NCBI GenBank assembly: GCA_021775755.1
Contig: JAJFHE010000036.1
Span: 52,198-116,197, forward strand
Direction: 5' to 3'
Source: Hyphomicrobiales bacterium
GTDB taxonomy: Bacteria; Pseudomonadota; Alphaproteobacteria; Rhizobiales; JAJFHB01
Length of the DNA: 64,000 nt
Shown here: positions 38,264 through 49,196 of the stretch, piece after piece
How positions within the stretch are numbered: position 1 is the stretch's first letter
Layout of the letters: each line of letters begins with the position of its first letter
Program-made: the position numbers and the translations under genes
The notes under the pieces: model-generated
Told to the model about the DNA's origin: nothing
What the model saw: only the letters and a program-made list of their open reading frames with translations
Databases searched by the model: none

Positions 38264-39937
38264 CTAGAGCCCGGAACAGCACGGGCAGGTTACGCTGGCA
38301 GTTGAGAGATAGCGGCGTGCTGTGCCGGGTGTTAGTGCAGGCATAGCGGGGCGAGACTGCAGTTTACGGTCACCGGCATTCGCTGTCGCACCCGCATGAT
38401 GCGTTCCGGGACCGCGTGCCGCACCCTTGCGCGCCAGAATTTCGAAGTCGCGCGCGGCAATCATAGTTTCGATCTCGATACTGTCGTCGCCCATGGCGCG
38501 CCAGTCGTAATACTCCGCTCCGTCGCAGCGCACGTCCACAGATTGCGCATCGTCGAGATTGGTGACGCGAAGCTTTGTTTTCATACCGGCCTTCGAGGGC
38601 GTTGCCGCGTAGGTTGCGACGTGAAGGATGCCGTCATCGTCATTCTCCGCGCGCGCAATGCCAAGGTTCGGGAAGTCGACACCTTCAATGCTCGGCGCAT
38701 TGAAACGGGCAAGATCAGGGGCATTGAAGATGCGCGACCAGGCTCCCGGTCCCCCGACTTCCGCCACCATGGCCAGAGCGCTCATCTGGCCGCGCGGCCA
38801 GTCTTCGCCGAGATAAAACCAGAAGCCGAACTCCGAGCCGCCATCGCCGAAGCCGCGCGGTTCGGCAATCTCTTCAACCGCTGAACGCAACCGCGCCTCC
38901 GCCGTAACATCGCCGAACTCCTTGGCGAGCACCAACGCCAGCACCGTGAAACGCGGATCGGGTGGGATGCGCAGCTTCTTCGAAGTGTCGCTCCAGCCCA
39001 TGCGCGCCGCCGCGGAGCGATAGAGAATTTCCGCAAGCGAGGGATCGTGCGGCAGAAGATAGAAGCAGGTGCCAAGGCCCGCCCCCGGCCCGCCGGTGTG
39101 CAGGCAATCTTCTATCGGATCGAAATAGAGTGCCATCCATTCCAGCTTGTCGTCGGAGATCGACATGTAGTGTTTGCGCGCATAGGCGATCCACTCATCG
39201 AACACCTGGACGTTCGACGTGCCACGCACCGCGTCGTAGAGCTTCACGCCAAGGCCCGCCGCGCTCAGGCAGAACGGCCAGATTTTGGTGTTCTCGCAAT
39301 GCGGGCCCTCGGGCCGTGCGGCCCACTGGTTTGTGAGAAATGCGTTGACCCGGTCATGCGTCCATTCGAACGTCCGTTCTTCAACGCCCGCGACCTTGAA
39401 GGGCTGGCGCCACTTGCCGTCATTGCTGACTGTCGCATAAAGGCCCATCAGCATGTTGAACCAGCCGCGGAAAAAAAGGTTGCCGTCCGAGGCAATCGGA
39501 TCGGGCTGCAGACCCCAGGGCTCGATGCCGTTGGCGGTCCAGCCCGGTGTGTCGTAGCGGCCGCGCAGGTGCTCGGGGATCCAGATATCGAGCCATTCCT
39601 GCGGATAGTTTTCACGGCGCGGATCGGGGCCGAACTGGGTGAGCCAGTCGATCGCCGCCCAATAGGTGGTGTGACGTTCGACAAGGCCATCGAGAATTTG
39701 CGCATAGGCCTCGCGCCACGCCGGCGTCTGCTGCGCCATGGCCGCCACCGCATAGCTTGATTCGGAAAGGTCGAAACGCGCGAAACTTTGAACCGGTTCG
39801 GATGAGTAGCGGTCCCACCAGGGGTGCGGTTCGCCGGCACTCGACCAGTCGTCGGATGTCGTTGCCTTGGTCCACAGGTGTTTCAGCCAACCGCGCGATC
39901 GTTCGTTGAGGCCGGTGGGATTTGACGGTGACGGCAT
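38264..39937 (-). CDS. Linalool dehydratase/isomerase (Ldi)-like protein
   Basis: DPIASDGNLFFRGWFNMLMGLY and CENTKIWPFCLSAAGLGVKLYDAVRGT align by eye to LinD [21 protein letters not shown] and [27 protein letters not shown] (recalled from memory); AGGAG SD. Confidence 0.72.
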   Translation of the reverse strand: MPSPSNPTGLNERSRGWLKHLWTKATTSDDWSSAGEPHPWWDRYSSEPVQSFARFDLSESSYAVAAMAQQTPAWREAYAQILDGLVERHTTYWAAIDWLTQFGPDPRRENYPQEWLDIWIPEHLRGRYDTPGWTANGIEPWGLQPDPIASDGNLFFRGWFNMLMGLYATVSNDGKWRQPFKVAGVEERTFEWTHDRVNAFLTNQWAARPEGPHCENTKIWPFCLSAAGLGVKLYDAVRGTSNVQVFDEWIAYARKHYMSISDDKLEWMALYFDPIEDCLHTGGPGAGLGTCFYLLPHDPSLAEILYRSAAARMGWSDTSKKLRIPPDPRFTVLALVLAKEFGDVTAEARLRSAVEEIAEPRGFGDGGSEFGFWFYLGEDWPRGQMSALAMVAEVGGPGAWSRIFNAPDLARFNAPSIEGVDFPNLGIARAENDDDGILHVATYAATPSKAGMKTKLRVTNLDDAQSVDVRCDGAEYYDWRAMGDDSIEIETMIAARDFEILARKGAARGPGTHHAGATANAGDRKLQSRPAMPALTPGTARRYLSTASVTCPCCSGL

Positions 39938-40051
39938 GGTTCTCCTGGTCCTCGTCGGGGATAAAGGCTTCACACATGGGGCTACGGCTGTGATAGTGGC
40001 GGCGACCCCGCCGCACCGTCAAGAGCGTCCTCACAAGGCTTAAAGGCACAG

Positions 40052-41274: not shown

Positions 41275-41523
41275 ATGGTTGAAAATATCGCAATCAAAAT
41301 CGACGACATCTACGTGCCGATCAGCCGGCGCAAGACGCTTGAACCCGAAAAGGTCGAACCGCTTGCGGAAAGCATTCTCGAAGAAGGCCAGCAGATCCCC
41401 ATTCAGGTACGCGACGACGGCAAGCGGCTGGTGCTCGTTGAAGGCCTGCACCGGCTCGAAGCGTGCAAACTGCTCGGCGAGGAAACGATCATCGGTATCT
41501 TCGTGCACGCGCGGCGGCACTAA
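41275..41523 (+). CDS. Stand-alone ParB/sulfiredoxin N-terminal domain protein
   Basis: LAESILEEGQQIPIQVR and LVEGLHRLEA (GxxRxxA); only 82 aa, no HTH. Confidence 0.85.
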   Translation: MVENIAIKIDDIYVPISRRKTLEPEKVEPLAESILEEGQQIPIQVRDDGKRLVLVEGLHRLEACKLLGEETIIGIFVHARRH

Positions 41524-41535
41524 GGCCGGGCGGCT

Positions 41536-42480
41536 TTACTGGAACAGCGTTCTGGCGACGCGGAAGCCGCGCCTCAGGAAACGGACGCCGACAGGGTCCG
41601 CATCGCGGCTGCTCGAGCGCATGCCGCGCGGTGGCGAGCGATGGGAACCGCCGCGAAAAATCCGTTCGCGGCAGTCGGTGCCGCTGGTGCGCGCCGCGCC
41701 GTCGGACGGTTCGCTTGAATAGAAGTACCAGCAATCCTCGACCCACTCGCTGACATTGCCATGCATGTCGTGAAGCCCGAAGGCGTTTGCGGGAAATGAC
41801 CCTACAGGTGCGGTATTCTTCCAGACATCGGCTCCCGATACCGCGCCCCAGCAGCAGAAATCCTTGCCGTAGTTGGCATAATCGTGGCTCGGCTCGGCGC
41901 CCCACCAGAATTTCGTCGCCGTTCCGGCCCGGGCGGCATACTCCCACTCGGCTTCGGTGAGCAAACGGTAGGTGTCGCCGGTCTTCCCCGACAGCCATTG
42001 CACGTAGGCTTGCGCGTCGTCCCAGGAGATTCTGATGACGGGCTGGCGGCCCCGGCCCCAGCCGTGGTCGTCGGGGGTGTAGCTACAGCCGCCGTCAGTG
42101 AAACAGGCGTCCCATTCACCAAAGGTTACTTCGAACTTTCCGACGGCGAAGGACGCGGCGATGTTAACCTCGTGCTGCGGGCCTTCTGTCATCTGGTCGC
42201 CCAACTCGTCTGTCGGCAGCCCCACTGTGATGGTGCCCGCAGGCAGCACGACCATCTGCGGGCAAACTTCGCAATCCTGGAACTCGCCGCCGAGTTCGAG
42301 CCCAGTCTCGCGCGAGGCGTCCGCCATGCGGTGTGAATCGATCTGCGGATTAGCCAACGTCGTGAGGCGTTCGTAGTTGGAGTTGCCGATGACCCGTGCG
42401 GCACGATTATCGGCGTGCGCCCCGCCCGCCGCGACAACCGTCAGAATGGCCGTGAAAACAGCCGGGACCATCGTGCGCAT
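41536..42480 (-). CDS. Secreted FGE-sulfatase/CLec domain protein carrying a ~35-aa caspase remnant
   Basis: Signal peptide, then AARVIGNSNYERLTTLANPQIDSHRMADASRE fused directly to FQDCEVCPQMVVLPAG...EAEWEYAARAG...GFRVART; no His/Cys caspase dyad. Confidence 0.8.
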   Translation of the reverse strand: MRTMVPAVFTAILTVVAAGGAHADNRAARVIGNSNYERLTTLANPQIDSHRMADASRETGLELGGEFQDCEVCPQMVVLPAGTITVGLPTDELGDQMTEGPQHEVNIAASFAVGKFEVTFGEWDACFTDGGCSYTPDDHGWGRGRQPVIRISWDDAQAYVQWLSGKTGDTYRLLTEAEWEYAARAGTATKFWWGAEPSHDYANYGKDFCCWGAVSGADVWKNTAPVGSFPANAFGLHDMHGNVSEWVEDCWYFYSSEPSDGAARTSGTDCRERIFRGGSHRSPPRGMRSSSRDADPVGVRFLRRGFRVARTLFQ

Positions 42481-42553
42481 AGCAGCCTCATATCGATTCG
42501 TCACACCCGCCCGGAATTCTAACTCCGGCCTGGCTAGGTTATGGAACAAAACC

Positions 42554-44275
42554 TCATGGCGAAAGCGTTCTGGCAACGCGGAACCCGGCCAATTCGTCCA
42601 TAAAAACGGTCCAGCGCCCGTAGCGGCTGGCCGAGCGAAGATCCTTCGCTTCGTCTTTCCAGGAGCCGCCGCGCAGAACGTGCTTTGTGCAGTCACCGCT
42701 CATGCGGGCAGAACCGTCGTCCGGCGCACCCGCATAGCTGTCGTTCCAGCAATCCTCCACCCACTCCGAAACATTGCCATGCATATCGAAAAGGCCGAAG
42801 CCGTTCACATCGGACTGCCCGACGACTGCGGTGCTTCGCAGGTAGCGCGTTAAGCCGCGATGGTTCGCCTCAAGCGAAGCGAGAAAATTGCCTGTGGAAA
42901 ATGGTGTCGTGGTGCCCGCGCGGGCCGCATATTCCCATTCGGCCTCCGAGAGCAGACGGTAGGCCTCGCCGGTCGTCCTTGAGAGCCAAGCCACATAAGC
43001 CTTCGCGTGATCCCAGGAGATGTTCAAGACGGGCTGCCGCCCCCGGCCGAATCTACCTGACGGATGGTGTCCGCATTCCGCACGCGCATGCCTCTTGCAA
43101 AAAGCATCCCATTCGAAGAAGGTCACCTCGAACCTGCCAACCGCGAAGTTTTGGGGAATGGTCACCGTGTGCTGTGGGCCTTCAGTGTCGCGGCGGTCAT
43201 CCTCATCCGCAGGCGACCCCATCATGAACGACCCCGCAGGCACGACCACCATTTCCGGGCAGTCATCGCAGTCGCGGAACTCATCGCCGGTCCGGTACTG
43301 GCCCGTGGGCTGCGGCTGCTCGGGATAGACGCCAACGGCCACCCTGTCTTCATCCGGTTCGCCTTCAAGCTCTATGAGCCGCGCCCTTGCGAACTCGGCG
43401 TAGAGGCTATCGGGAAACTTCTCGATGAACGTCTCCAGCACGGCCCTGCTTTGCGTGTTCTGGATCGCTGTCCATGCTGCGGCGTCCGGAGCCGTGCCGG
43501 GGGTCAAAGGAGCAACGATGGCTCCGGGCAAGAAGTAGAAATCGTCCTTGAGCGACTGCTCCTCCCACGGCGTCTGAGCGCCTCCGGTTTGCGCCTCGAC
43601 CGCGATGCGTGTCTGGCGGAACACATGAATGAGTTCGCTTCCCGCCTGCCTGATCGCTTCGGCAAGTGCCGCCGTATAGGGGCTGTTGGCGCCATTGCCG
43701 TCGGCTGCGACCTGACCGGGCGCTGCGGAATAGGCGATGAGCGAGCCGGACGGTGCCTCGATGCGGCCAAGGCCGCGCGAGGCGGAGCGGAACGCACCGC
43801 GGAACGGATTGTTGCGGCAGGCATCGAGCACGACGATGTTCAGTCTGTTTCTTGCACGCTCCATCTGGCGCAATACCCAGCGCGCGTCGACCGCATCGAG
43901 CTCCAGATCCTCTTCCGTGTTGATGTTGGCGCCAAGCGGCAGCAGGAAGTTCGAATTGAGGGCCTGCACGCCGTGGCCGGCATAGAAGAAGAGGCCCACC
44001 GCGTCCGCACCGGCGGCGGCAAGCTTCGCGCCGAACTCGCGCATGGCGCGGATCATTCCCGAGCGGTCCGCATTCAACGCCTCGACGACCTCAAAACCGA
44101 CATCGCGCAAGGCGCCAGCCATGAGGCGCGCGTCGTTTTCCGGATTGGCGAGCGGCGAGATCAGCTCGTACTCGGAATTGCCGATGACCAACGCGACGCG
44201 CTTTTCAGCGAGAGCGTCGCCCGCCACAAGAAACGTCAGAAAGGCGACCAAAGCAGCCAAGGCTATCGTGCGCAT
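42554..44275 (-). CDS. Secreted caspase-like protease (peptidase C14) fused to an FGE-sulfatase/CLec domain
   Basis: Signal peptide ending ALA; RVALVIGN, FFYAGHG, LDACRNNPF; FGE core EAEWEYAARAG, FGLFDMHGNVSEWV, GFRVART; GAGGTG SD. Confidence 0.92.
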   Translation of the reverse strand: MRTIALAALVAFLTFLVAGDALAEKRVALVIGNSEYELISPLANPENDARLMAGALRDVGFEVVEALNADRSGMIRAMREFGAKLAAAGADAVGLFFYAGHGVQALNSNFLLPLGANINTEEDLELDAVDARWVLRQMERARNRLNIVVLDACRNNPFRGAFRSASRGLGRIEAPSGSLIAYSAAPGQVAADGNGANSPYTAALAEAIRQAGSELIHVFRQTRIAVEAQTGGAQTPWEEQSLKDDFYFLPGAIVAPLTPGTAPDAAAWTAIQNTQSRAVLETFIEKFPDSLYAEFARARLIELEGEPDEDRVAVGVYPEQPQPTGQYRTGDEFRDCDDCPEMVVVPAGSFMMGSPADEDDRRDTEGPQHTVTIPQNFAVGRFEVTFFEWDAFCKRHARAECGHHPSGRFGRGRQPVLNISWDHAKAYVAWLSRTTGEAYRLLSEAEWEYAARAGTTTPFSTGNFLASLEANHRGLTRYLRSTAVVGQSDVNGFGLFDMHGNVSEWVEDCWNDSYAGAPDDGSARMSGDCTKHVLRGGSWKDEAKDLRSASRYGRWTVFMDELAGFRVARTLSP

Positions 44276-44360
44276 GTTCACCTCATTTTGTGCCGTCACG
44301 ATGGCTTTGAAGCCACCGGACACTCGAACTCCAGATCCTTGAGCCAAGGAAGACATAGTC

Positions 44361-46097
44361 TCAATCCACAAGCGTTCTGGCCACACGGAAACCGTCGAAC
44401 TTGTTGCTAAGGTAGGATTTAAGCTTGCGGCGGCGGGCCGAGCGGAGATGTTTCATAAATTCGACCCAGGAGCCGCCGCGCTGAACGTGTTGCCCGCAGT
44501 CGCCGCTCATGCGGGCAGAGCCGTCGTTCGGCGCGCCCTCATAGCTGCCGTTCCAGCAATCCTGCACCCACTCGGCGACATTGCCGTGCATGTCGTGCAG
44601 TCCGAAACGATTTATAGTTTGAATTGAAGAGGTGCCGACACTTGCGGTTCTTCGCAGATTCCGTGCTGAACCGTTGTGGTTTGCCTGAAGCGCAGTGATA
44701 AGGCTGCCTGTCGAGAACGGTGTCGTGGTGCCTGCGCGAGCCGCGTATTCCCATTCGGCCTCGGAGAGCAGACGATAGGTTTCGCCGGTCTTTTTTGAGA
44801 GCCACGCAACATATCTCATCGCGCGATTCCACGTGACATTGATCACCGGGCGGTCACCCCGACCCCAACCCTCATCTTCTGGAAGGATATGGCAGCCGCC
44901 TTCGGAATGGCACGCATCCCATTCGGCAAAAGTCACCTCAAACTTGCCCACCGCGAACGGTCGGGGAATTGTCACCCTGCGCTGTGGGCTCTCGTTACTT
45001 TGGTGGCCCTCCTCGCTCTCGGGCGAGCCCATGGTGAACGATCCCGCAGGGACCACCACCATCTGCGGACACACATCGCAGTCGCGGAACTCATCGCCGG
45101 GCTGGTACTGGCCTGTGGGTTGCGGCTGCTCGGGATAGATGCCGACGGCCACCCTGTCTTCCTCCGGTTCGTCTTCAAGCTGTTCCAGCCGCGCCCTCGC
45201 CAACGCCGCATAAAGACCGCCGGGGTATTCTTGAAGAAAGGCTTCAAGCACGGCTTGGCTCTGCGTGTCCTCGACGGCGGCCCACGCCCGCTCCACGGCA
45301 CCGGACGTTGCAGCCGGCTGCGACGGCGATGACGCAGCGGCAGTTCCTGGTACGAAGTAGAAGTCGCCCAGCAGGGACGATTCCTCCCACGGGGTTTGGC
45401 GGCCGGCGGTTTCGTTGCGCACTTGAATGCGGGCGCGCTTGAAGACCTGTTCGATGGGCAGGCCGGGCACTGCGATCGCTGCGGCGAGCGCTCTAGTGTA
45501 GGGCGAGTTGGCGCCATCGCCATCGGCGGCGCTCTCGCCGGGGGCCGCGGCAAAGGCGACGAGCGAGCCGCTCGCAGCTTCCACCCGCGCCAGCCCGCGC
45601 CCACCGGCCCCCCTCGAGCCGCCAAACGGGTTGTCGCGGCAGGCATCGAGGATAACAAGGTTCAGTGCGTTTCCAGCACCCTCCATCTGGGCGAGGATGT
45701 CGGATGCGCTGATGGCTTCAAGGTCGAGGTCCGCCTCATCGAGGATGTTTGCTTTGAGCGGCAGCAGGAAGTTCTGCCCCTGTGACTGCAAGCCGTGGCC
45801 GGCGTAAAAGAACAGCCCGACAGCGTCCGGCCCCGCCGCCCGCAAGGCCCGGCCGAATTCCTGAATGGCCCGGCCCATGGCGCGGCGGTCCGCATCGGTG
45901 ACGGTAATGACCTCAAAACCCACCTCGCGCAGGGTCGCGGCCATGAGGCGGGCATCGTTCTGCGGGTTGGCGAGCGGCGTAATCGCCTCATAGTTCGAGT
46001 TACCGATGATCAGCGCGACGCGTTGTTCGGCGTGCGCATCACTGGCCGTCAAAGTCACAGAAACCGCGGTCAAAATAACGAAGACTATCGCGCGCAT
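44361..46097 (-). CDS. Secreted caspase-like protease (peptidase C14) fused to an FGE-sulfatase/CLec domain
   Basis: Signal peptide ending AHA; RVALIIGN, FFYAGHG, LDACRDNPF; FGLHDMHGNVAEWV, GFRVART. Confidence 0.92.
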   Translation of the reverse strand: MRAIVFVILTAVSVTLTASDAHAEQRVALIIGNSNYEAITPLANPQNDARLMAATLREVGFEVITVTDADRRAMGRAIQEFGRALRAAGPDAVGLFFYAGHGLQSQGQNFLLPLKANILDEADLDLEAISASDILAQMEGAGNALNLVILDACRDNPFGGSRGAGGRGLARVEAASGSLVAFAAAPGESAADGDGANSPYTRALAAAIAVPGLPIEQVFKRARIQVRNETAGRQTPWEESSLLGDFYFVPGTAAASSPSQPAATSGAVERAWAAVEDTQSQAVLEAFLQEYPGGLYAALARARLEQLEDEPEEDRVAVGIYPEQPQPTGQYQPGDEFRDCDVCPQMVVVPAGSFTMGSPESEEGHQSNESPQRRVTIPRPFAVGKFEVTFAEWDACHSEGGCHILPEDEGWGRGDRPVINVTWNRAMRYVAWLSKKTGETYRLLSEAEWEYAARAGTTTPFSTGSLITALQANHNGSARNLRRTASVGTSSIQTINRFGLHDMHGNVAEWVQDCWNGSYEGAPNDGSARMSGDCGQHVQRGGSWVEFMKHLRSARRRKLKSYLSNKFDGFRVARTLVD

Positions 46098-46180
46098 CAA
46101 CGCCTCATGTTGTTGCAATCGGACCGGCAATGCCCCGCCCGGCAGTCGGGTTCCAGATCCAAGAGACACAGACTCCAACT

Positions 46181-47959
46181 TCACGGCTCAAGCGATCTGG
46201 CGACACGGAACCCTATACTTCCAAAGCTGTTGTAATCGGCACCTGCCCTGCGACGACCACTGTTGCTCAATGATTTGCCGTTGTTGTCGAAATTTCCACC
46301 GCGGGACATACGCCAATCGCAATCGCCGTCGGTGCGCGCTGATCCGTCGCTCGGAGCGTCCGAGTAACCTTCGGTCCAACAATCTTCAACAAACTCGGAG
46401 ACATTGCCGTTCATGTCGTGAAGGCCGAACGGATTGGCGGGAAACGAGCCGACCGGCGCGGTGTTCAGCCACTGGTCACGCCCCGAAGCGAGACCTTCGC
46501 AGCACAGATTTTGTTCTTTCCCGTAATTGGCATATTCGTAACTTGGCGACGGCCCCCACCAGTGGGCCTCACGGGTTCCAGCGCGCGCCGCATACTCCCA
46601 CTCGGCTTCCGTAAGCAGACGATATTCCTCTCCGGTCTTACTCGAGAGCCACACCAAGTAGGCTCTGATTCTAACGTTCCACGAAACATTAATGACAGGC
46701 AGCCGGCCGCGTCCCCAACCCTCATCATCGACTGTTCGGCAACCCCCGTCTGCCACGCAGGCGTCCCATTCAGCGAAGGTCACCTCGAACTTGCCGACCG
46801 CAAAGGAACTGCCAAGCGTAACCCTGTGCCGCGGGCCCAAATATTCGGATCGTGCCAGTCCCATCAAGAACGACCCTGCCGGCACCACCACCATGAGCGG
46901 ACACTCATCGCAGTCCTGAAATTCATCTCCCGCCTGCAGATCGGTCGCGGACGGTTGCTCAGGATAGACGCCGACGGCGACGCGGTCCTCTTCCGGCTCG
47001 CCCTGAAGCTCGTTCAACCGCGCTTTGGCAAACTCCGTGTAGAGGCTATCTGGAAACCTCGCGGCGAATGTCTCCAGCACAGCCTCGCTCTGCGTGTTCT
47101 GGATGACCGCCCACGCGCGCTCGTCGGCGCCGGCGGATGTGGATGGCTGCGCCACGGGTTGCTCGGCGCTGCCTGCGCCCGAGAAGTAGAAGTCGCCGGT
47201 CACCTCGTCGTAGTAGGCGGGGCGCTGGTCGTGGGAGACCGTGGTGGCGAGCTTTTGCACCTCGACGCGCACGCGCCGCGCGGTCTGGGTCAGCGACAGC
47301 CCAGGCTGCCGCAGCAGCGGGATCAGGCTGCGGGTGAAGACGGAATTTGGATTTGCATCCGAGTTGGAGAGGCGGTCGAGCGCCGTCTGTCCGACCCCTG
47401 CCGAATAAAGCACGAACGCGCCCTCGGGCGCTTCGAGACGGCCAAGGCCGCGCGTCGCGCCGACACCGCGCGTGCCGTCGCGCGGAAACGGATTGTTGCG
47501 GCAGGCATCGAGCATCAGGATCGCCACACGCGTGCCGCGGCTGCGGATGCGCTGCAGCACCTGATCGACGGCGATAGCCTCCGCGGTAACGAAGTCATCC
47601 TGCCCCGGCTCGACATTGGGAATATCGACCGGCAGGAGATAGTTGCGACCGGCGATCTCGACACCATGGCCGGCGAAAAAGAACAGCGCCTCATCGCCGG
47701 TTTCCAGTTGCGAGGCAAACAGCTGAAGCTGCCGGTTCATCTCGCGGCGCGACACGTTCTCCGCGCGCAGCACGTCAAAGCCCAGCGCGCCAAGCGTTGC
47801 CCCGATGGCGCGCGCGTCGTTGACGGCCTTTTGAAGCTTCGCCACCTGAGCATAGTCGTCATTGCCGATGACCAGTGCGACACGCTTGGCCGATGCGGGA
47901 GCGGCAAGCCCGACGGCCATGCTCAGGATGCACAGAGTTACTGCCAGCGTTCGGCGCAT
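46181..47959 (-). CDS. Secreted caspase-like protease (peptidase C14) fused to an FGE-sulfatase/CLec domain
   Basis: Signal peptide ending ASA; RVALVIGN, FFFAGHG, LDACRNNPF; FGLHDMNGNVSEFV, GFRVARS. Confidence 0.92.
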   Translation of the reverse strand: MRRTLAVTLCILSMAVGLAAPASAKRVALVIGNDDYAQVAKLQKAVNDARAIGATLGALGFDVLRAENVSRREMNRQLQLFASQLETGDEALFFFAGHGVEIAGRNYLLPVDIPNVEPGQDDFVTAEAIAVDQVLQRIRSRGTRVAILMLDACRNNPFPRDGTRGVGATRGLGRLEAPEGAFVLYSAGVGQTALDRLSNSDANPNSVFTRSLIPLLRQPGLSLTQTARRVRVEVQKLATTVSHDQRPAYYDEVTGDFYFSGAGSAEQPVAQPSTSAGADERAWAVIQNTQSEAVLETFAARFPDSLYTEFAKARLNELQGEPEEDRVAVGVYPEQPSATDLQAGDEFQDCDECPLMVVVPAGSFLMGLARSEYLGPRHRVTLGSSFAVGKFEVTFAEWDACVADGGCRTVDDEGWGRGRLPVINVSWNVRIRAYLVWLSSKTGEEYRLLTEAEWEYAARAGTREAHWWGPSPSYEYANYGKEQNLCCEGLASGRDQWLNTAPVGSFPANPFGLHDMNGNVSEFVEDCWTEGYSDAPSDGSARTDGDCDWRMSRGGNFDNNGKSLSNSGRRRAGADYNSFGSIGFRVARSLEP

Positions 47960-48023
47960 GGGCTTGTTCCTTTGTTACGCGTGTGTCGTGTTCCAGGTGC
48001 CTGGAGCGGTATGTGTTCCAATC

Positions 48024-48356
48024 TCAGCAACCAGGTGTCGCGGCCTGACCCACGGCGGTCTCTTCGTAGTTGAAGCGCATGTTATGATCGCGGTCGTGCA
48101 GGTGAACGGTCATGGACGACCCGGCGTTGAACTGAAAATTGCCGAGATATCTGACCGAGGAATCGCCGACATAGCGCACGCAATAGGCGACATCGACACG
48201 CGCGCCGCAGCCGTTTTTGAACTTCCAGTTATGCGTACCCGCAACCTGGTTGACGGTAATGCAGCCAATGGTTTCGGCATTCGTGCGATCGCTCCAAAGC
48301 ATTCCACCGCTTAGCGCGAAAGCAACGAACAGACATGTGAAGGCAAGGTACTTCAT
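48024..48356 (-). CDS. Small secreted hypothetical protein with four mature-region cysteines
   Basis: AGGAG SD, MKYLAFTCLFVAFALSGG signal peptide, 110 aa, same strand as the caspase array. Confidence 0.7.
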   Translation of the reverse strand: MKYLAFTCLFVAFALSGGMLWSDRTNAETIGCITVNQVAGTHNWKFKNGCGARVDVAYCVRYVGDSSVRYLGNFQFNAGSSMTVHLHDRDHNMRFNYEETAVGQAATPGC

Positions 48357-48383
48357 TGGGCTTTCTCCTTGTTATTTGCCATT

Positions 48384-48683
48384 TCAGACGGGCGCAGCGA
48401 CAATCGCCGAAATCGCGCATTCATGATCGGGCCCGGCGTCGCAACTAAAGCGTTCTGACAATGCGGAATCCGGCGGCGTCAGGAACGGCGGCGTCAATCC
48501 GGCGTCAAACTCCCGCAGGGCATCGGCCATGAGGCGTGCGTCGTTTGCCGGATTGGGAAGCGGTGAGATCAGCTCGTAATCGAAATTGCCGATAACCAGT
48601 GCGATGCACTTTTTGGCGATTGCGCCGCCTGCGGTGACACTCATCAGAAACGCAGCCAAAGGGGCCTGGACCATCGTTCGCAT
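48384..48683 (-). pseudogene. Truncated caspase-FGE paralog (signal peptide plus the first ~35 aa of the caspase domain)
   Basis: MRTMVQAPLAAFLMSVTAGGAIAKKCIALVIGNFDYELISPLPNPANDARLMADALRE, then unrelated sequence and a stop; GAGG SD. Confidence 0.75.
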
Positions 48684-48787
48684 GATCGCCTCACATATTA
48701 CGTTCCCAGGCCAGACTAGCGCTTTCGCAAGCGGGCTGTCGTGCCACAGCGTGAAACGATGTTCACGATCATGTGAAGCGGGAGGCG

Positions 48788-49161: not shown

Positions 49162-49196
49162 AAAAAAATCCGGGGCGGGACAATGTCCCGCCCCGG
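49162..49196 (-). terminator. Rho-independent terminator after the sodium:solute symporter
   Basis: CCGGGGCGGGAC-aat-GTCCCGCCCCGG perfect 12-bp stem with an A7 run on its left side (U-run on the minus strand). Confidence 0.85.

What the first reader, a model, noticed from the sequence alone, without database searches (positions are those of the whole stretch)
41536..48683. Tandem array of secreted caspase-CLec(FGE) proteins: a candidate periplasmic sensor-protease system
Seen: five co-oriented paralogous loci. Three are full length (signal peptide, caspase with intact His-Gly and DAC dyad, helical linker EPxEDRVAVGxYPEQP, FGE domain), one is FGE-only and one is a caspase stub. All FGE domains lack the two catalytic cysteines of true formylglycine-generating enzymes (RGGSW/H/NF without C-x4-C). 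Known: non-catalytic FGE domains adopt the CLec ligand-binding fold, and bacterial caspase homologs act in signalling and defence, mostly in the cytoplasm. Inference: an expanded family of extracytoplasmic ligand-gated or ligand-targeted proteases, each with a different specificity (surface surveillance, anti-predator/phage or host interaction).
Basis: partly seen in the sequence, partly recalled or inferred. Interest (0 to 1): 0.8.

Follow-up and report, generated by a model that had tools for sequence, protein, structure and literature searches.

The report
Tandem exported caspase–PvdO-like fusion genes
Three intact and two decayed neighbouring genes encode exported caspase-type proteases joined to a non-catalytic PvdO-like (FGE-fold) domain. 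This domain combination was catalogued in 2012, occurs in thousands of bacteria and has never been tested at the bench, so the locus is real but ordinary.

Summary
On the minus strand lie three full-length genes: B 42554-44275, C 44361-46097 and D 46181-47959. Each has a signal peptide, a Peptidase_C14 domain with an intact His/Cys dyad, a linker and an FGE-sulfatase domain. Copy A (41536-42480) has lost its caspase domain by internal deletion. E (48384-48683) is a stub. None of the FGE domains has the catalytic cysteine pair.

New here:
- The FGE domain is specifically PvdO-like (PDB 5HHA, E 7e-89).
- The caspase domain is closest to the MALT1 paracaspase and keeps two of its acidic S1 residues, so cleavage after Arg is likely.
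- Export is supported by N-terminal hydrophobicity, AxA cleavage motifs, a single (catalytic) Cys in the caspase part and even Cys counts in the FGE part.
- The genome holds 33 caspase loci. About 15 are secreted types carrying other periplasmic-type modules.
- A 25-residue loop diverges between paralogues but is conserved between close orthologues. The genome has no reverse transcriptase, so this is a specificity loop and not DGR hypervariation.

The architecture is already known: it was the fifth commonest among metacaspases in 2012, and at least 6,804 database clusters match. No partner genes were found, so calling it a "system" is not supported, and ligand gating remains speculation. Interest is low to moderate.

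The parts
42554..44275 (-). Gene B, 573 aa: signal peptide, caspase (C14), 3-helix module, disordered linker, PvdO-like FGE domain
   Evidence: ORF and start. Pfam Peptidase_C14 E 5e-40 and FGE-sulfatase E 6e-52. AF2 model with mean pLDDT 89.
44207..44275 (-). B signal peptide (aa 1-23, MRTIALAALVAFLTFLVAGDALA, predicted cleavage after ALA)
   Evidence: Maximum Kyte-Doolittle (11-residue window) 2.74, against 0.5-1.6 for internal caspase domains in the same genome. The model shows an N-terminal helix at residues 2-17. SignalP was not available.
43526..44206 (-). B caspase domain (aa 24-250). Catalytic His101 at 43973-43975 and Cys153 at 43817-43819. Asp48 and Asp151 match MALT1 S1 residues D365 and D462.
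   Evidence: Foldseek to the MALT1 caspase domain gives TMt 0.78.
43361..43489 (-). B three-helix module (aa 263-305), which also follows the caspase domain in other secreted paralogues
   Evidence: DSSP helices at 263-271, 277-286 and 291-305. The same AWxxIxxxxxxxxLxxFLxxYPxxxY motif is visible in the sequences.
42557..43285 (-). B PvdO-like FGE-fold domain (aa 331-573)
   Evidence: PvdO 5HHA E 7e-89 in the profile search. Foldseek TMt 0.87 at 43% identity. The NCBIfam PvdO model aligns over its full length but scores 233 bits, below the 500-bit cut-off.
42587..42661 (-). B paralogue-specific loop (aa 539-563) between RGGS and GFRVAR. It occupies the position of the FGE catalytic Cys loop and of the DGR variable region.
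   Evidence: 12-32% identity among A-D against 61-78% in the flanks. Conserved among close orthologues.
44361..46097 (-). Gene C, 578 aa, full-length fusion
   Evidence: It is 61% identical to B and groups with the dispersed copy own_C6 at SH-like support 94, below the tree's 95 star threshold.
46181..47959 (-). Gene D, 592 aa, full-length fusion from a different clade. Its linker has been homogenised with that of B and C.
   Evidence: Caspase domain 40% identical to B but linker 75%.
41536..42480 (-). Gene A, 314 aa: signal peptide plus about 35 aa of caspase N-terminus joined directly to a complete FGE domain (internal deletion of the protease)
48384..48683 (-). Locus E, 99 aa: signal peptide plus about 35 aa of caspase N-terminus, then an unrelated tail. 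It is a decayed stub.
48024..48356 (-). ORF S, 110 aa, with a signal-peptide-like N-terminus, a strong RBS and five Cys (four after the predicted cleavage site). It has no homologue anywhere, so whether it belongs to the array is uncertain.

Best explanation
B, C and D each encode a Sec-exported, probably periplasmic, single-polypeptide protease. An N-terminal paracaspase-like C14 domain with an intact His-Cys dyad and an acidic S1 pocket probably cleaves after Arg or Lys. A small three-helix module and a flexible linker tie it to a C-terminal PvdO-like FGE-fold domain. That domain cannot make formylglycine. It most likely acts as a recognition or targeting module, and its paralogue-specific loop sets which ligand or substrate each copy engages.

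The Arg-rich, low-confidence loop after the catalytic Cys (RGAFRSASRGLGR) may be an autoprocessing site. A is a caspase-less derivative that may still work as a stand-alone exported PvdO-like protein. E is a dead remnant.

The array is one corner of a 33-member caspase expansion in this genome. In that expansion the same secreted protease cassette is combined with different periplasmic-type binding modules.

Shown here: domain identities, the dyad, absence of the FGE cysteines, export-type sequence features, and loop divergence.

Inferred: localisation, P1 specificity, autoprocessing, and a binding role for the FGE domain.
For: - Domains.
- The dyad is invariant in 61 homologues.
- MALT1 D365, H415, D462 and C464 align with B D48, H101, D151 and C153.
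- No Cys lies where the FGE catalytic pair sits.
- Export: hydrophobic N-termini with small-x-small motifs in the window copies. In the 46 of 76 family fusions where the caspase beta-1 motif could be located by pattern, 42 had the hydrophobic stretch and 41 the small-x-small motif. Internal caspase domains in the same genome lack both.
- Of the 56 family members (of 61) in which both sequence motifs could be located, 47 have exactly one Cys in the caspase part and all 56 have an even Cys count (4, 6 or 8) in the FGE part.
- Family variants insert PG_binding_1, SH3_3 or PDZ domains.
- Sister secreted caspases in this genome carry Sel1 plus PG_binding_1, legume lectin, P460, PPC or DUF4384 modules.
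- PvdO is a Sec-exported periplasmic protein (PMC9305348).
- The loop is 12-32% identical between paralogues but 84-93% identical between close orthologues.
- Stand-alone FGE-only relatives exist here and elsewhere, so the module is autonomous.
- The model has pLDDT 89 but pTM 0.52 and disordered linkers, which fits two tethered domains.
Against: - There is no experimental datum for any member of this fusion family.
- SignalP was not available, and localisation beyond the inner membrane is unknown.
- The third MALT1 S1 residue (E500) could not be aligned by sequence.
- PvdO itself is thought to be an oxidoreductase or accessory protein rather than a lectin (PMC6206403), so a catalytic role for the domain is not excluded.
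Confidence: 0.6

Rival explanations
1. The proteins are envelope housekeeping or nutrient-scavenging proteases. The FGE-fold domain merely anchors or positions the protease on a cell-envelope polymer or abundant substrate, as PG_binding_1 does in the sister paralogues. No sensing or surveillance is involved. This shares the biochemistry of the best explanation and differs only in biological role.
For: Sister secreted caspases in the same genome carry PG_binding_1, Sel1, lectin or PPC modules. The flanking genes that gave a family are ordinary transport or metabolic families. Close orthologues keep the loop, which shows purifying selection and not an arms race. Extracellular protein degradation by bacterial metacaspases has been suggested before (PMC4933709).
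Against: Keeping five or more FGE-type paralogues with divergent loops in one genome suggests several distinct targets. There is no direct evidence either way.
Confidence: 0.2
2. The C-terminal domain is a PvdO-like enzyme or enzyme accessory with a redox function. On this view the fusion is a bifunctional periplasmic maturation enzyme that cleaves and oxidises a secreted peptide or metabolite.
For: PvdO is the closest characterised relative: E 7e-89, 43% identity, TMt 0.87, with a full-length alignment to the NCBIfam PvdO model. PvdO is needed in vivo for dihydropyoverdine oxidation (PMC6206403).
Against: Scores are far below the PvdO equivalog cut-off (180-233 bits against 500). None of the flanking ORFs scanned is a pyoverdine or other biosynthetic gene. 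Purified PvdO had no cofactor and no activity (PMC6206403). Enzymes of one pathway would not be expected to diverge in the loop between paralogues.
Confidence: 0.12
3. The proteins form an immune or defence module comparable to the cytoplasmic caspase-like defence systems (type IV Thoeris, gasdermin-activating proteases, caspase-FGS effectors of conflict systems) or to FGE-fold T6SS immunity proteins.
For: Caspase plus FGS combinations occur in predicted conflict systems (PMC7159879). FGE-sulfatase domains serve as sensors in defence STAND proteins (PMC13581612). Weak PADLOC caspase hits, E 2e-9 to 2e-16. FGE-like Tsi3 immunity proteins exist (10.1101/2021.05.21.445229).
Against: These proteins have signal peptides, whereas the known systems act in the cytoplasm. 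No NTPase, TIR, gasdermin, vWA-MoxR or T6SS gene was found among the ORFs scanned around the array. No conserved partner appears in related loci. The PADLOC matches cover only the generic caspase core.
Confidence: 0.05
4. The variable C-terminal loop is a DGR (diversity-generating retroelement) variable region, or a recent relic of one.
For: The loop sits exactly where DGR targets of the FGE/CLec type carry their variable region (TvpA 2Y3C is a structural match). D's loop is Asn-rich.
Against: The 99.45%-complete genome has no RVT_1 reverse transcriptase. Differences between the copies occur at all four bases and not only at adenine-templated positions. The loop is conserved between close orthologues. 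The copies are old paralogues with at most 61% identity.
Confidence: 0.03

Closest known systems
Metacaspase|FGE-sulfatase domain architecture of prokaryotic caspase homologues (Asplund-Samuelsson et al. 2012, PMC3501461)
   Same: The N-to-C domain order is the same. The 2012 survey recorded this architecture in 33 of 671 prokaryotic metacaspases, making FGE-sulfatase the fifth most frequent partner domain, and noted that caspases are abundant in Alphaproteobacteria. It also suggested that N-terminal helices are signal peptides.
   Different: That work was a Pfam-level catalogue. It read the domain as a sulfatase-modifying enzyme. It did not note the missing catalytic cysteines, the PvdO affinity, the paracaspase affinity or the tandem arrays.
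PvdO of Pseudomonas (PDB 5HHA), a periplasmic pyoverdine-maturation protein
   Same: It is the best sequence and structure match of the C-terminal domain (E 7e-89, 43% identity, TMt 0.87). Both are Sec-exported and lack the FGE cysteine pair. Both share the N-terminal DCxxCPEM motif.
   Different: PvdO is a stand-alone protein encoded in a pvd operon. The domains here score below the PvdO family cut-off, are fused to a protease, and have no pyoverdine genes among the flanking ORFs scanned.
MALT1 paracaspase (e.g. PDB 3V4O, 3UO8)
   Same: It is the closest solved relative of the protease domain (profile E 4e-29, TMt 0.78). The (K/R)VALxIGN, YAGHG and LDxCR motifs are shared, as are the acidic S1 residues D365 and D462.
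   Different: MALT1 is cytoplasmic and eukaryotic, with death and Ig domains, and is activated through CARMA-BCL10 scaffolds. The proteins here are exported and bacterial, with a helical module and an FGE-fold domain instead.
Caspase/orthocaspase-CLec(FGS) proteins of cyanobacterial DGR and conflict systems (PMC7517822, PMC7159879, PMC10907252)
   Same: A caspase-type protease sits N-terminal to an FGE/CLec-fold domain whose C-terminal loop determines binding.
   Different: Those proteins are cytoplasmic, of the TvpA type, diversified by a reverse transcriptase, and embedded in NTPase-centred systems. The proteins here are exported and PvdO-type, the genome has no reverse transcriptase, and there are no partner genes.
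Non-catalytic FGE-fold proteins of the cell envelope (PorK/GldK of the T9SS, Tsi3 T6SS immunity proteins)
   Same: The FGE fold is used without FGE chemistry, as a structural or binding module outside the cytoplasm (10.1101/2021.05.21.445229).
   Different: Similarity is much lower (GldK model 67-88 bits). The proteins here have no lipoprotein signal and no T9SS or T6SS context.

Membership tests
Peptidase family C14 (caspase / paracaspase / metacaspase) | Significant match to the family profile above the curated cut-off | tested here: met
   PF00656 scores 115-138 bits against a 21.4-bit cut-off for B, C and D.
Peptidase family C14 (caspase / paracaspase / metacaspase) | Catalytic His-Cys dyad | tested here: met
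   YAGHG and DACR are present in B, C and D. H101 and C153 are invariant in 61 homologues and align to MALT1 H415 and C464.
Peptidase family C14 (caspase / paracaspase / metacaspase) | Caspase-hemoglobinase fold | tested here: met
   AF2 model with pLDDT above 90 over most of residues 24-250. Foldseek to the MALT1 caspase domain gives TMt 0.78.
Peptidase family C14 (caspase / paracaspase / metacaspase) | Proteolytic activity | not testable with these tools
   Needs an enzyme assay.
Paracaspase-like subgroup | Acidic S1 pocket (MALT1 D365, D462, E500) that gives Arg specificity | tested here: inconclusive
   The D365 and D462 equivalents (B D48 and D151) align and are invariant. The E500 region lies outside the sequence alignment. 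Invariant D192 is only a candidate. The MALT1 residue numbers come from my own knowledge of the literature.
Paracaspase-like subgroup | Death domain and Ig domains flanking the protease | tested here: not met
   Pfam finds only Peptidase_C14 and FGE-sulfatase.
Formylglycine-generating enzyme (SUMF1/FGE proper) | FGE fold / PF03781 match | tested here: met
   PF03781 scores 150-177 bits. Foldseek to FGE structures gives TMt 0.63-0.72.
Formylglycine-generating enzyme (SUMF1/FGE proper) | Two copper-binding catalytic cysteines (human C336 and C341) | tested here: not met
   No Cys lies between RGGS and GFRVAR in A-D. The alignment to human FGE places the pair there. These are therefore not FGEs.
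PvdO (NCBIfam NF051459, dihydropyoverdine dehydrogenase) | Score above the equivalog cut-off | tested here: not met
   180-233 bits against a 500-bit cut-off, although the alignment covers the full length.
PvdO (NCBIfam NF051459, dihydropyoverdine dehydrogenase) | Encoded with pvdM/N/P pyoverdine maturation genes | tested here: not met
   The neighbours that gave a family are EamA, Ldi-like, MaoC-like, a weak ParB_N-like ORF, a weak YGGT match, SSF and DUF4212. This was not checked genome-wide.
EgtB/OvoA sulfoxide synthases ('SUMF1/EgtB/PvdO family nonheme iron enzyme', the database name) | N-terminal DinB_2 domain carrying the iron-binding residues | tested here: not met
   There is no DinB domain, and the EgtB and OvoA models match only the C-terminal FGE part at 18-56 bits against cut-offs of 360-400. 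The database name is generic.
DGR variable protein | Cognate reverse transcriptase and template repeat, with adenine-specific differences between template and variable region | tested here: not met
   No RVT_1 in the genome. Differences occur at all bases. The loop is conserved in close orthologues.
Sec-exported protein | N-terminal signal peptide: positive n-region, hydrophobic h-region, small-x-small cleavage motif | tested here: met
   The pattern is MR(T/A/R), then 15-18 hydrophobic residues, then ALA, AHA or ASA directly before the first caspase strand. This was a rule-based check only, because SignalP was not available.
Metacaspase|FGE-sulfatase architecture class (PMC3501461) | Peptidase_C14 N-terminal to FGE-sulfatase in one polypeptide | tested here: met
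   At least 6,804 database clusters match at E <= 1e-20 and most of the best 120 listed share the architecture.

The most novel reading that the evidence does not exclude
The secreted paracaspase-like proteases could form a periplasmic recognition repertoire. In this genome that means about 15 of the 33 caspase loci, five of them full PvdO-type fusions plus the caspase-less copy A. Each paralogue's FGE-fold loop, or other binding module, would recognise a different foreign or damage-associated ligand in the envelope and trigger Arg-specific proteolysis. This would be an extracytoplasmic counterpart of cytoplasmic caspase-based immunity, and it would share ancestry with the eukaryotic paracaspase.
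Probability: 0.1. Interest if true: 0.7.

Novelty: new member of a known kind. Interest (0 to 1): 0.3.

Why it matters
Bacterial caspase homologues are now known as cytoplasmic immune effectors. The large class that carries signal peptides has never been studied at the bench, and databases label it misleadingly as 'nonheme iron enzyme' or 'formylglycine-generating enzyme'.

This locus gives a clean set of natural variants for first experiments: three intact paralogues, one natural caspase deletion and one dead stub. Homologues exist in tractable organisms, for example on a Sinorhizobium meliloti plasmid and megaplasmid (39.7% identity).

The close affinity of the protease domain to MALT1 also bears on the proposed alphaproteobacterial origin of paracaspases.

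As a genomic observation it is not new. The architecture was catalogued in 2012 and is present in thousands of genomes.

Tried and rejected
The genome has no RVT_1, the 3' ends differ at all bases, and the loop is conserved in close orthologues. Rejected.
- **Conserved partner gene.** Neighbouring ORFs of 80 related loci were clustered. The only recurrent non-caspase neighbour was a secreted three-repeat protein in 19 loci, and it is absent from this window. About one third of loci have a second caspase gene downstream.
- **ORF S as partner or inhibitor.** It has no homologue in the genome, in the related loci or in 5.8 billion proteins, so no inference is possible.
- **S or the tail of E as frame-shifted FGE remnants.** tblastn and blastn show only weak similarity, about 25% over 45 residues, beyond the shared N-terminus. 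Inconclusive.
- **Defence annotation.** PADLOC gives only weak generic caspase hits.
- **Promoter and terminator scan.** The one strong terminator lies upstream of the YggT-like gene (49170-49196). None lies between the array genes, and the counts do not exceed shuffled controls, so operon structure is undecided.
- **PvdO essential glutamate.** The source paper (PMC5818194) is not held, so this was not tested.
- **Third MALT1 S1 residue.** Profile alignments stop after the catalytic Cys.

Full report
**1. What is there**

The minus strand between 41.5 and 48.7 kb carries six consecutive ORFs separated by 27-85 nt:

| ORF | Coordinates | Length |
|---|---|---|
| E | 48384-48683 | 99 aa |
| S | 48024-48356 | 110 aa |
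| D | 46181-47959 | 592 aa |
| C | 44361-46097 | 578 aa |
| B | 42554-44275 | 573 aa |
| A | 41536-42480 | 314 aa |

The starts were chosen at ATGs preceded by GAGG or AAGGA(G). The longer ORFs listed mechanically overlap the preceding gene and are unlikely to be real.

Pfam assigns Peptidase_C14 plus FGE-sulfatase to B, C and D and FGE-sulfatase alone to A. E has a sub-threshold match to the first 36 positions of the caspase model. In the alignment of the five proteins:
- B, C and D keep FFYAGHG and LDACRNNPF.
- A has the signal peptide and about 35 residues of caspase N-terminus joined directly to a complete FGE domain.
- E has the same N-terminus followed by about 40 unrelated residues.

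**2. The two domains, more precisely**

A profile of 61 family members was searched against all PDB sequences.
- C-terminal domain: PvdO of Pseudomonas aeruginosa (5HHA) at E 7e-89, far ahead of true formylglycine-generating enzymes (about 1e-37).
- N-terminal domain: the MALT1 paracaspase at E 4e-29, ahead of caspase-1 (about 1e-9). No metacaspase structure appeared among the best 60 matches shown, or at E <= 1e-5 with the caspase-only profile.

The AlphaFold2 model of B has mean pLDDT 89 and pTM 0.52. It shows two well-folded domains, a small three-helix module (residues 263-305) and two disordered linkers at 254-260 and 311-321. The EPxEDRVAVGxYPEQP motif is therefore a flexible tether and not a helix. 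Foldseek agrees with the sequence search: PvdO TMt 0.87 at 43% identity, and the MALT1 caspase domain TMt 0.78.

In the alignment to human FGE, the catalytic cysteines (the C336S entry 2AFT shows the position) fall right after GGS(W/Y), where A-D have no Cys. These are not FGEs.

The NCBIfam PvdO model aligns over its full length but scores 180-233 bits against a 500-bit cut-off. The domain is PvdO-like and is not PvdO.

Alignments to MALT1 put B D48, H101, D151 and C153 opposite D365, H415, D462 and C464. D48, D151, H101 and C153 are invariant in the family. From what is known of MALT1 (my own knowledge of the literature), D365 and D462 line the Arg-binding S1 pocket, so P1-Arg/Lys specificity is the likely reading. 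The third S1 residue could not be aligned.

**3. Export**

All six ORFs begin with M(R/K), then 15-18 hydrophobic residues, then a small-x-small motif, directly before the first caspase strand.

The maximum Kyte-Doolittle value (11-residue window) of these N-termini is 2.45-2.97. It is 2.45-3.1 for most of the N-terminal-caspase proteins of the genome (two outliers at 1.75 and 1.93). It is -0.2 to 1.6 for the stretch preceding internal caspase domains in the same genome. Among the 76 family fusions, the caspase beta-1 motif could be located by pattern in 46. In these, 42 had the hydrophobic stretch and 41 the cleavage-type motif.

Independent support:
- Of the 56 family members in which both motifs could be located, 47 have exactly one Cys (the catalytic one) in the caspase-plus-linker part. 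The FGE part has 4, 6 or 8 Cys in all 56. This pattern is expected for disulfide-bonded exported proteins with one free thiol.
- Family variants carry PG_binding_1, SH3_3 or PDZ domains.
- PvdO itself is exported by a Sec signal peptide (PMC9305348).

SignalP was not available, and the final compartment (periplasm, outer membrane or medium) is unknown.

**4. Genomic and evolutionary setting**

The window lies on contig C30 of a 5.47-Mb assembly. The genome holds 33 Peptidase_C14 loci and 9 FGE-sulfatase loci. Five are full fusions: three here and two dispersed on contigs C6 and C29.

The caspases fall into three groups:
- Secreted proteins with an N-terminal caspase.
- Proteins with a long N-terminal region and a C-terminal caspase, many of them clustered on contig C42.
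- Proteins of 1,200-1,800 aa with a C-terminal caspase.

The other secreted ones combine the same cassette (signal peptide, caspase, three-helix module) with Sel1 plus PG_binding_1, PG_binding_1 alone, a legume-type lectin, a cytochrome-P460-like domain, PPC repeats or DUF4384. The FGE array is thus one instance of a general scheme of an exported caspase plus an exchangeable binding module.

In a tree of 87 fusions, B and C group with the two dispersed copies and one metagenomic protein (support 96). D sits in a different clade next to a Propylenella sequence. The array is therefore not a recent local triplication. The maximum identity is 61%, between B and C.

D's linker is 75% identical to B's, although the caspase domains are only 40% identical and D's nearest relative has a 29%-identical linker. 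This points to gene conversion within the array. About 85 nt upstream of A, B and C (partly E) are also alignable, with a shared TGAGG-N5-ATGCG start region.

The flanking ORFs that were scanned give EamA, Ldi-like and MaoC-like families and a weak ParB_N-like match on one side. On the other side they give a weak YGGT match, SSF and DUF4212, plus one ORF with no family. G+C content does not shift. No mobile or defence gene was recognised among these ORFs.

**5. The variable loop**

The 25 residues between RGGS and GFRVAR are 12-32% identical among A-D. The 46 residues before them are 61-78% identical and the 11 after them 64-73%. This is the position of the FGE active-site loop and of the variable region in DGR targets such as TvpA, which is itself a structural match.

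- The 99.45%-complete genome has no RVT_1.
- Differences occur at all four bases.
- Among ortholog pairs whose remaining FGE domain is 80-96% identical, the loop is on average 84-93% identical. One outlier pair was seen, L043/L045.

The loop is therefore stable within orthologous lineages and different between paralogous ones. That is the signature of a specificity-determining element and not of ongoing hypermutation.

**6. Is it a 'system'?**

No. Clustering the neighbours of 80 related loci found no conserved partner. About one third have another caspase gene immediately downstream, and tandem fusion arrays recur in three loci (L004, L018, L062). ORF S has no homologue anywhere. PADLOC returns only weak generic caspase hits. 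Each protein looks self-contained.

**7. How widespread, and what is known**

At least 6,804 90%-identity clusters match B at E <= 1e-20, and most of the best 120 listed share the architecture. They come from Hyphomicrobiales, Rhodospirillales, Rhodocyclales, Burkholderiales and Vicinamibacterales.

Plasmid-borne copies occur in Sinorhizobium meliloti, Azospirillum and Caballeronia. Where the match is annotated, it is called 'SUMF1/EgtB/PvdO family nonheme iron enzyme'.

Published work:
- Asplund-Samuelsson et al. (2012, PMC3501461) listed metacaspase-FGE-sulfatase as a widespread architecture (33 of 671 sequences). They noted caspase abundance in Alphaproteobacteria and probable signal peptides.
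- Caspase-CLec/FGS fusions are discussed for cyanobacterial DGR and conflict systems (PMC7517822, PMC7159879).
- FGE-sulfatase sensors are reported in STAND defence proteins (PMC13581612).
- Non-enzymatic FGE-fold proteins are known as T6SS immunity proteins (10.1101/2021.05.21.445229) and T9SS components.

I found no experimental study of an exported caspase-PvdO-like fusion.

**8. Verdict**

It goes too far on 'sensor system', 'ligand-gated' and defence roles.

The locus is a new member of a catalogued but uncharacterised kind. Its practical value is as a natural allelic series for first biochemical work. Its conceptual interest lies in the paracaspase affinity and in the size of the secreted caspase repertoire.

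As a result, expression, synteny in close relatives and the organism's identity remain open.

Noticed in passing
genome contigs outside the window (e.g. C42:56-28759; C6:39069-42800; C46:13938-22643): The genome has 33 Peptidase_C14 loci. Ten lie within 29 kb of contig C42: five proteins of about 585-1,275 aa with a long N-terminal region and a C-terminal caspase, and five of about 900-1,800 aa with a more divergent C-terminal caspase. One 2,901-aa ORF on C46 has an internal caspase domain.
   Followed up: partly
window 46950-47200 (D linker) versus 43330-43500 (B linker): D's linker is 75% identical to B's, while their caspase domains are only 40% identical and D's nearest relative has a 29%-identical linker. 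This indicates gene conversion or mosaicism inside the array.
   Followed up: partly
window 48024-48356 (-): ORF S is 110 aa with a strong AAGGAG ribosome-binding site, a signal-peptide-like N-terminus and five cysteines (four after the predicted cleavage site). It is wedged between D and the stub E. It has no homologue in the genome, in 80 related loci or in 5.8 billion database proteins, so it is an ORFan or a spurious ORF.
   Followed up: partly
window 42481-42553, 44276-44360, 46098-46180, 48684-48787: The roughly 85-nt regions upstream of A, B and C (partly E) are alignable. They share a GGATCTGGAG...CCGG core and an identical TGAGG-N5-ATGCG start context, so the duplication unit included the 5' untranslated region. 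D's upstream region differs.
   Followed up: partly
L043:5808-7502 and L045:7851-9623: This ortholog pair is 83% identical over the rest of the FGE domain but only 24% identical in the 25-residue loop. Every other close pair keeps the loop. This may be a case of localised replacement or diversification.
   Followed up: no
19 related loci (e.g. L045:2356-3585, L024:6246-7532): In 19 of the 80 related loci an ORF encoding a secreted protein of about 400 aa lies within a few kb of the caspase-FGE gene, usually upstream and on the opposite strand. It is built of three repeats with a GHHH(L/V)L(V/I)D...NDF(N/H)HLHFGAGQTE motif. It is absent from this window.
   Followed up: no
window 38264-39973 (-): A 569-aa ORF matches the linalool dehydratase/isomerase family (Ldi, E 9e-16), which is an uncommon family.
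   Followed up: no
window 41275-41523 (+): An 82-aa stand-alone ORF resembling the ParB N-terminal domain (24.7 bits, just below the 26.3-bit cut-off) converges on the 3' end of gene A.
   Followed up: no
family-wide (alignment A3): In the 56 family members where both motifs could be located, the caspase-plus-linker part has exactly one Cys in 47 and the FGE part has an even number (4, 6 or 8) in all 56. The N-terminal DCxxCPEM motif of the FGE domain is invariant and shared with PvdO.
   Followed up: yes
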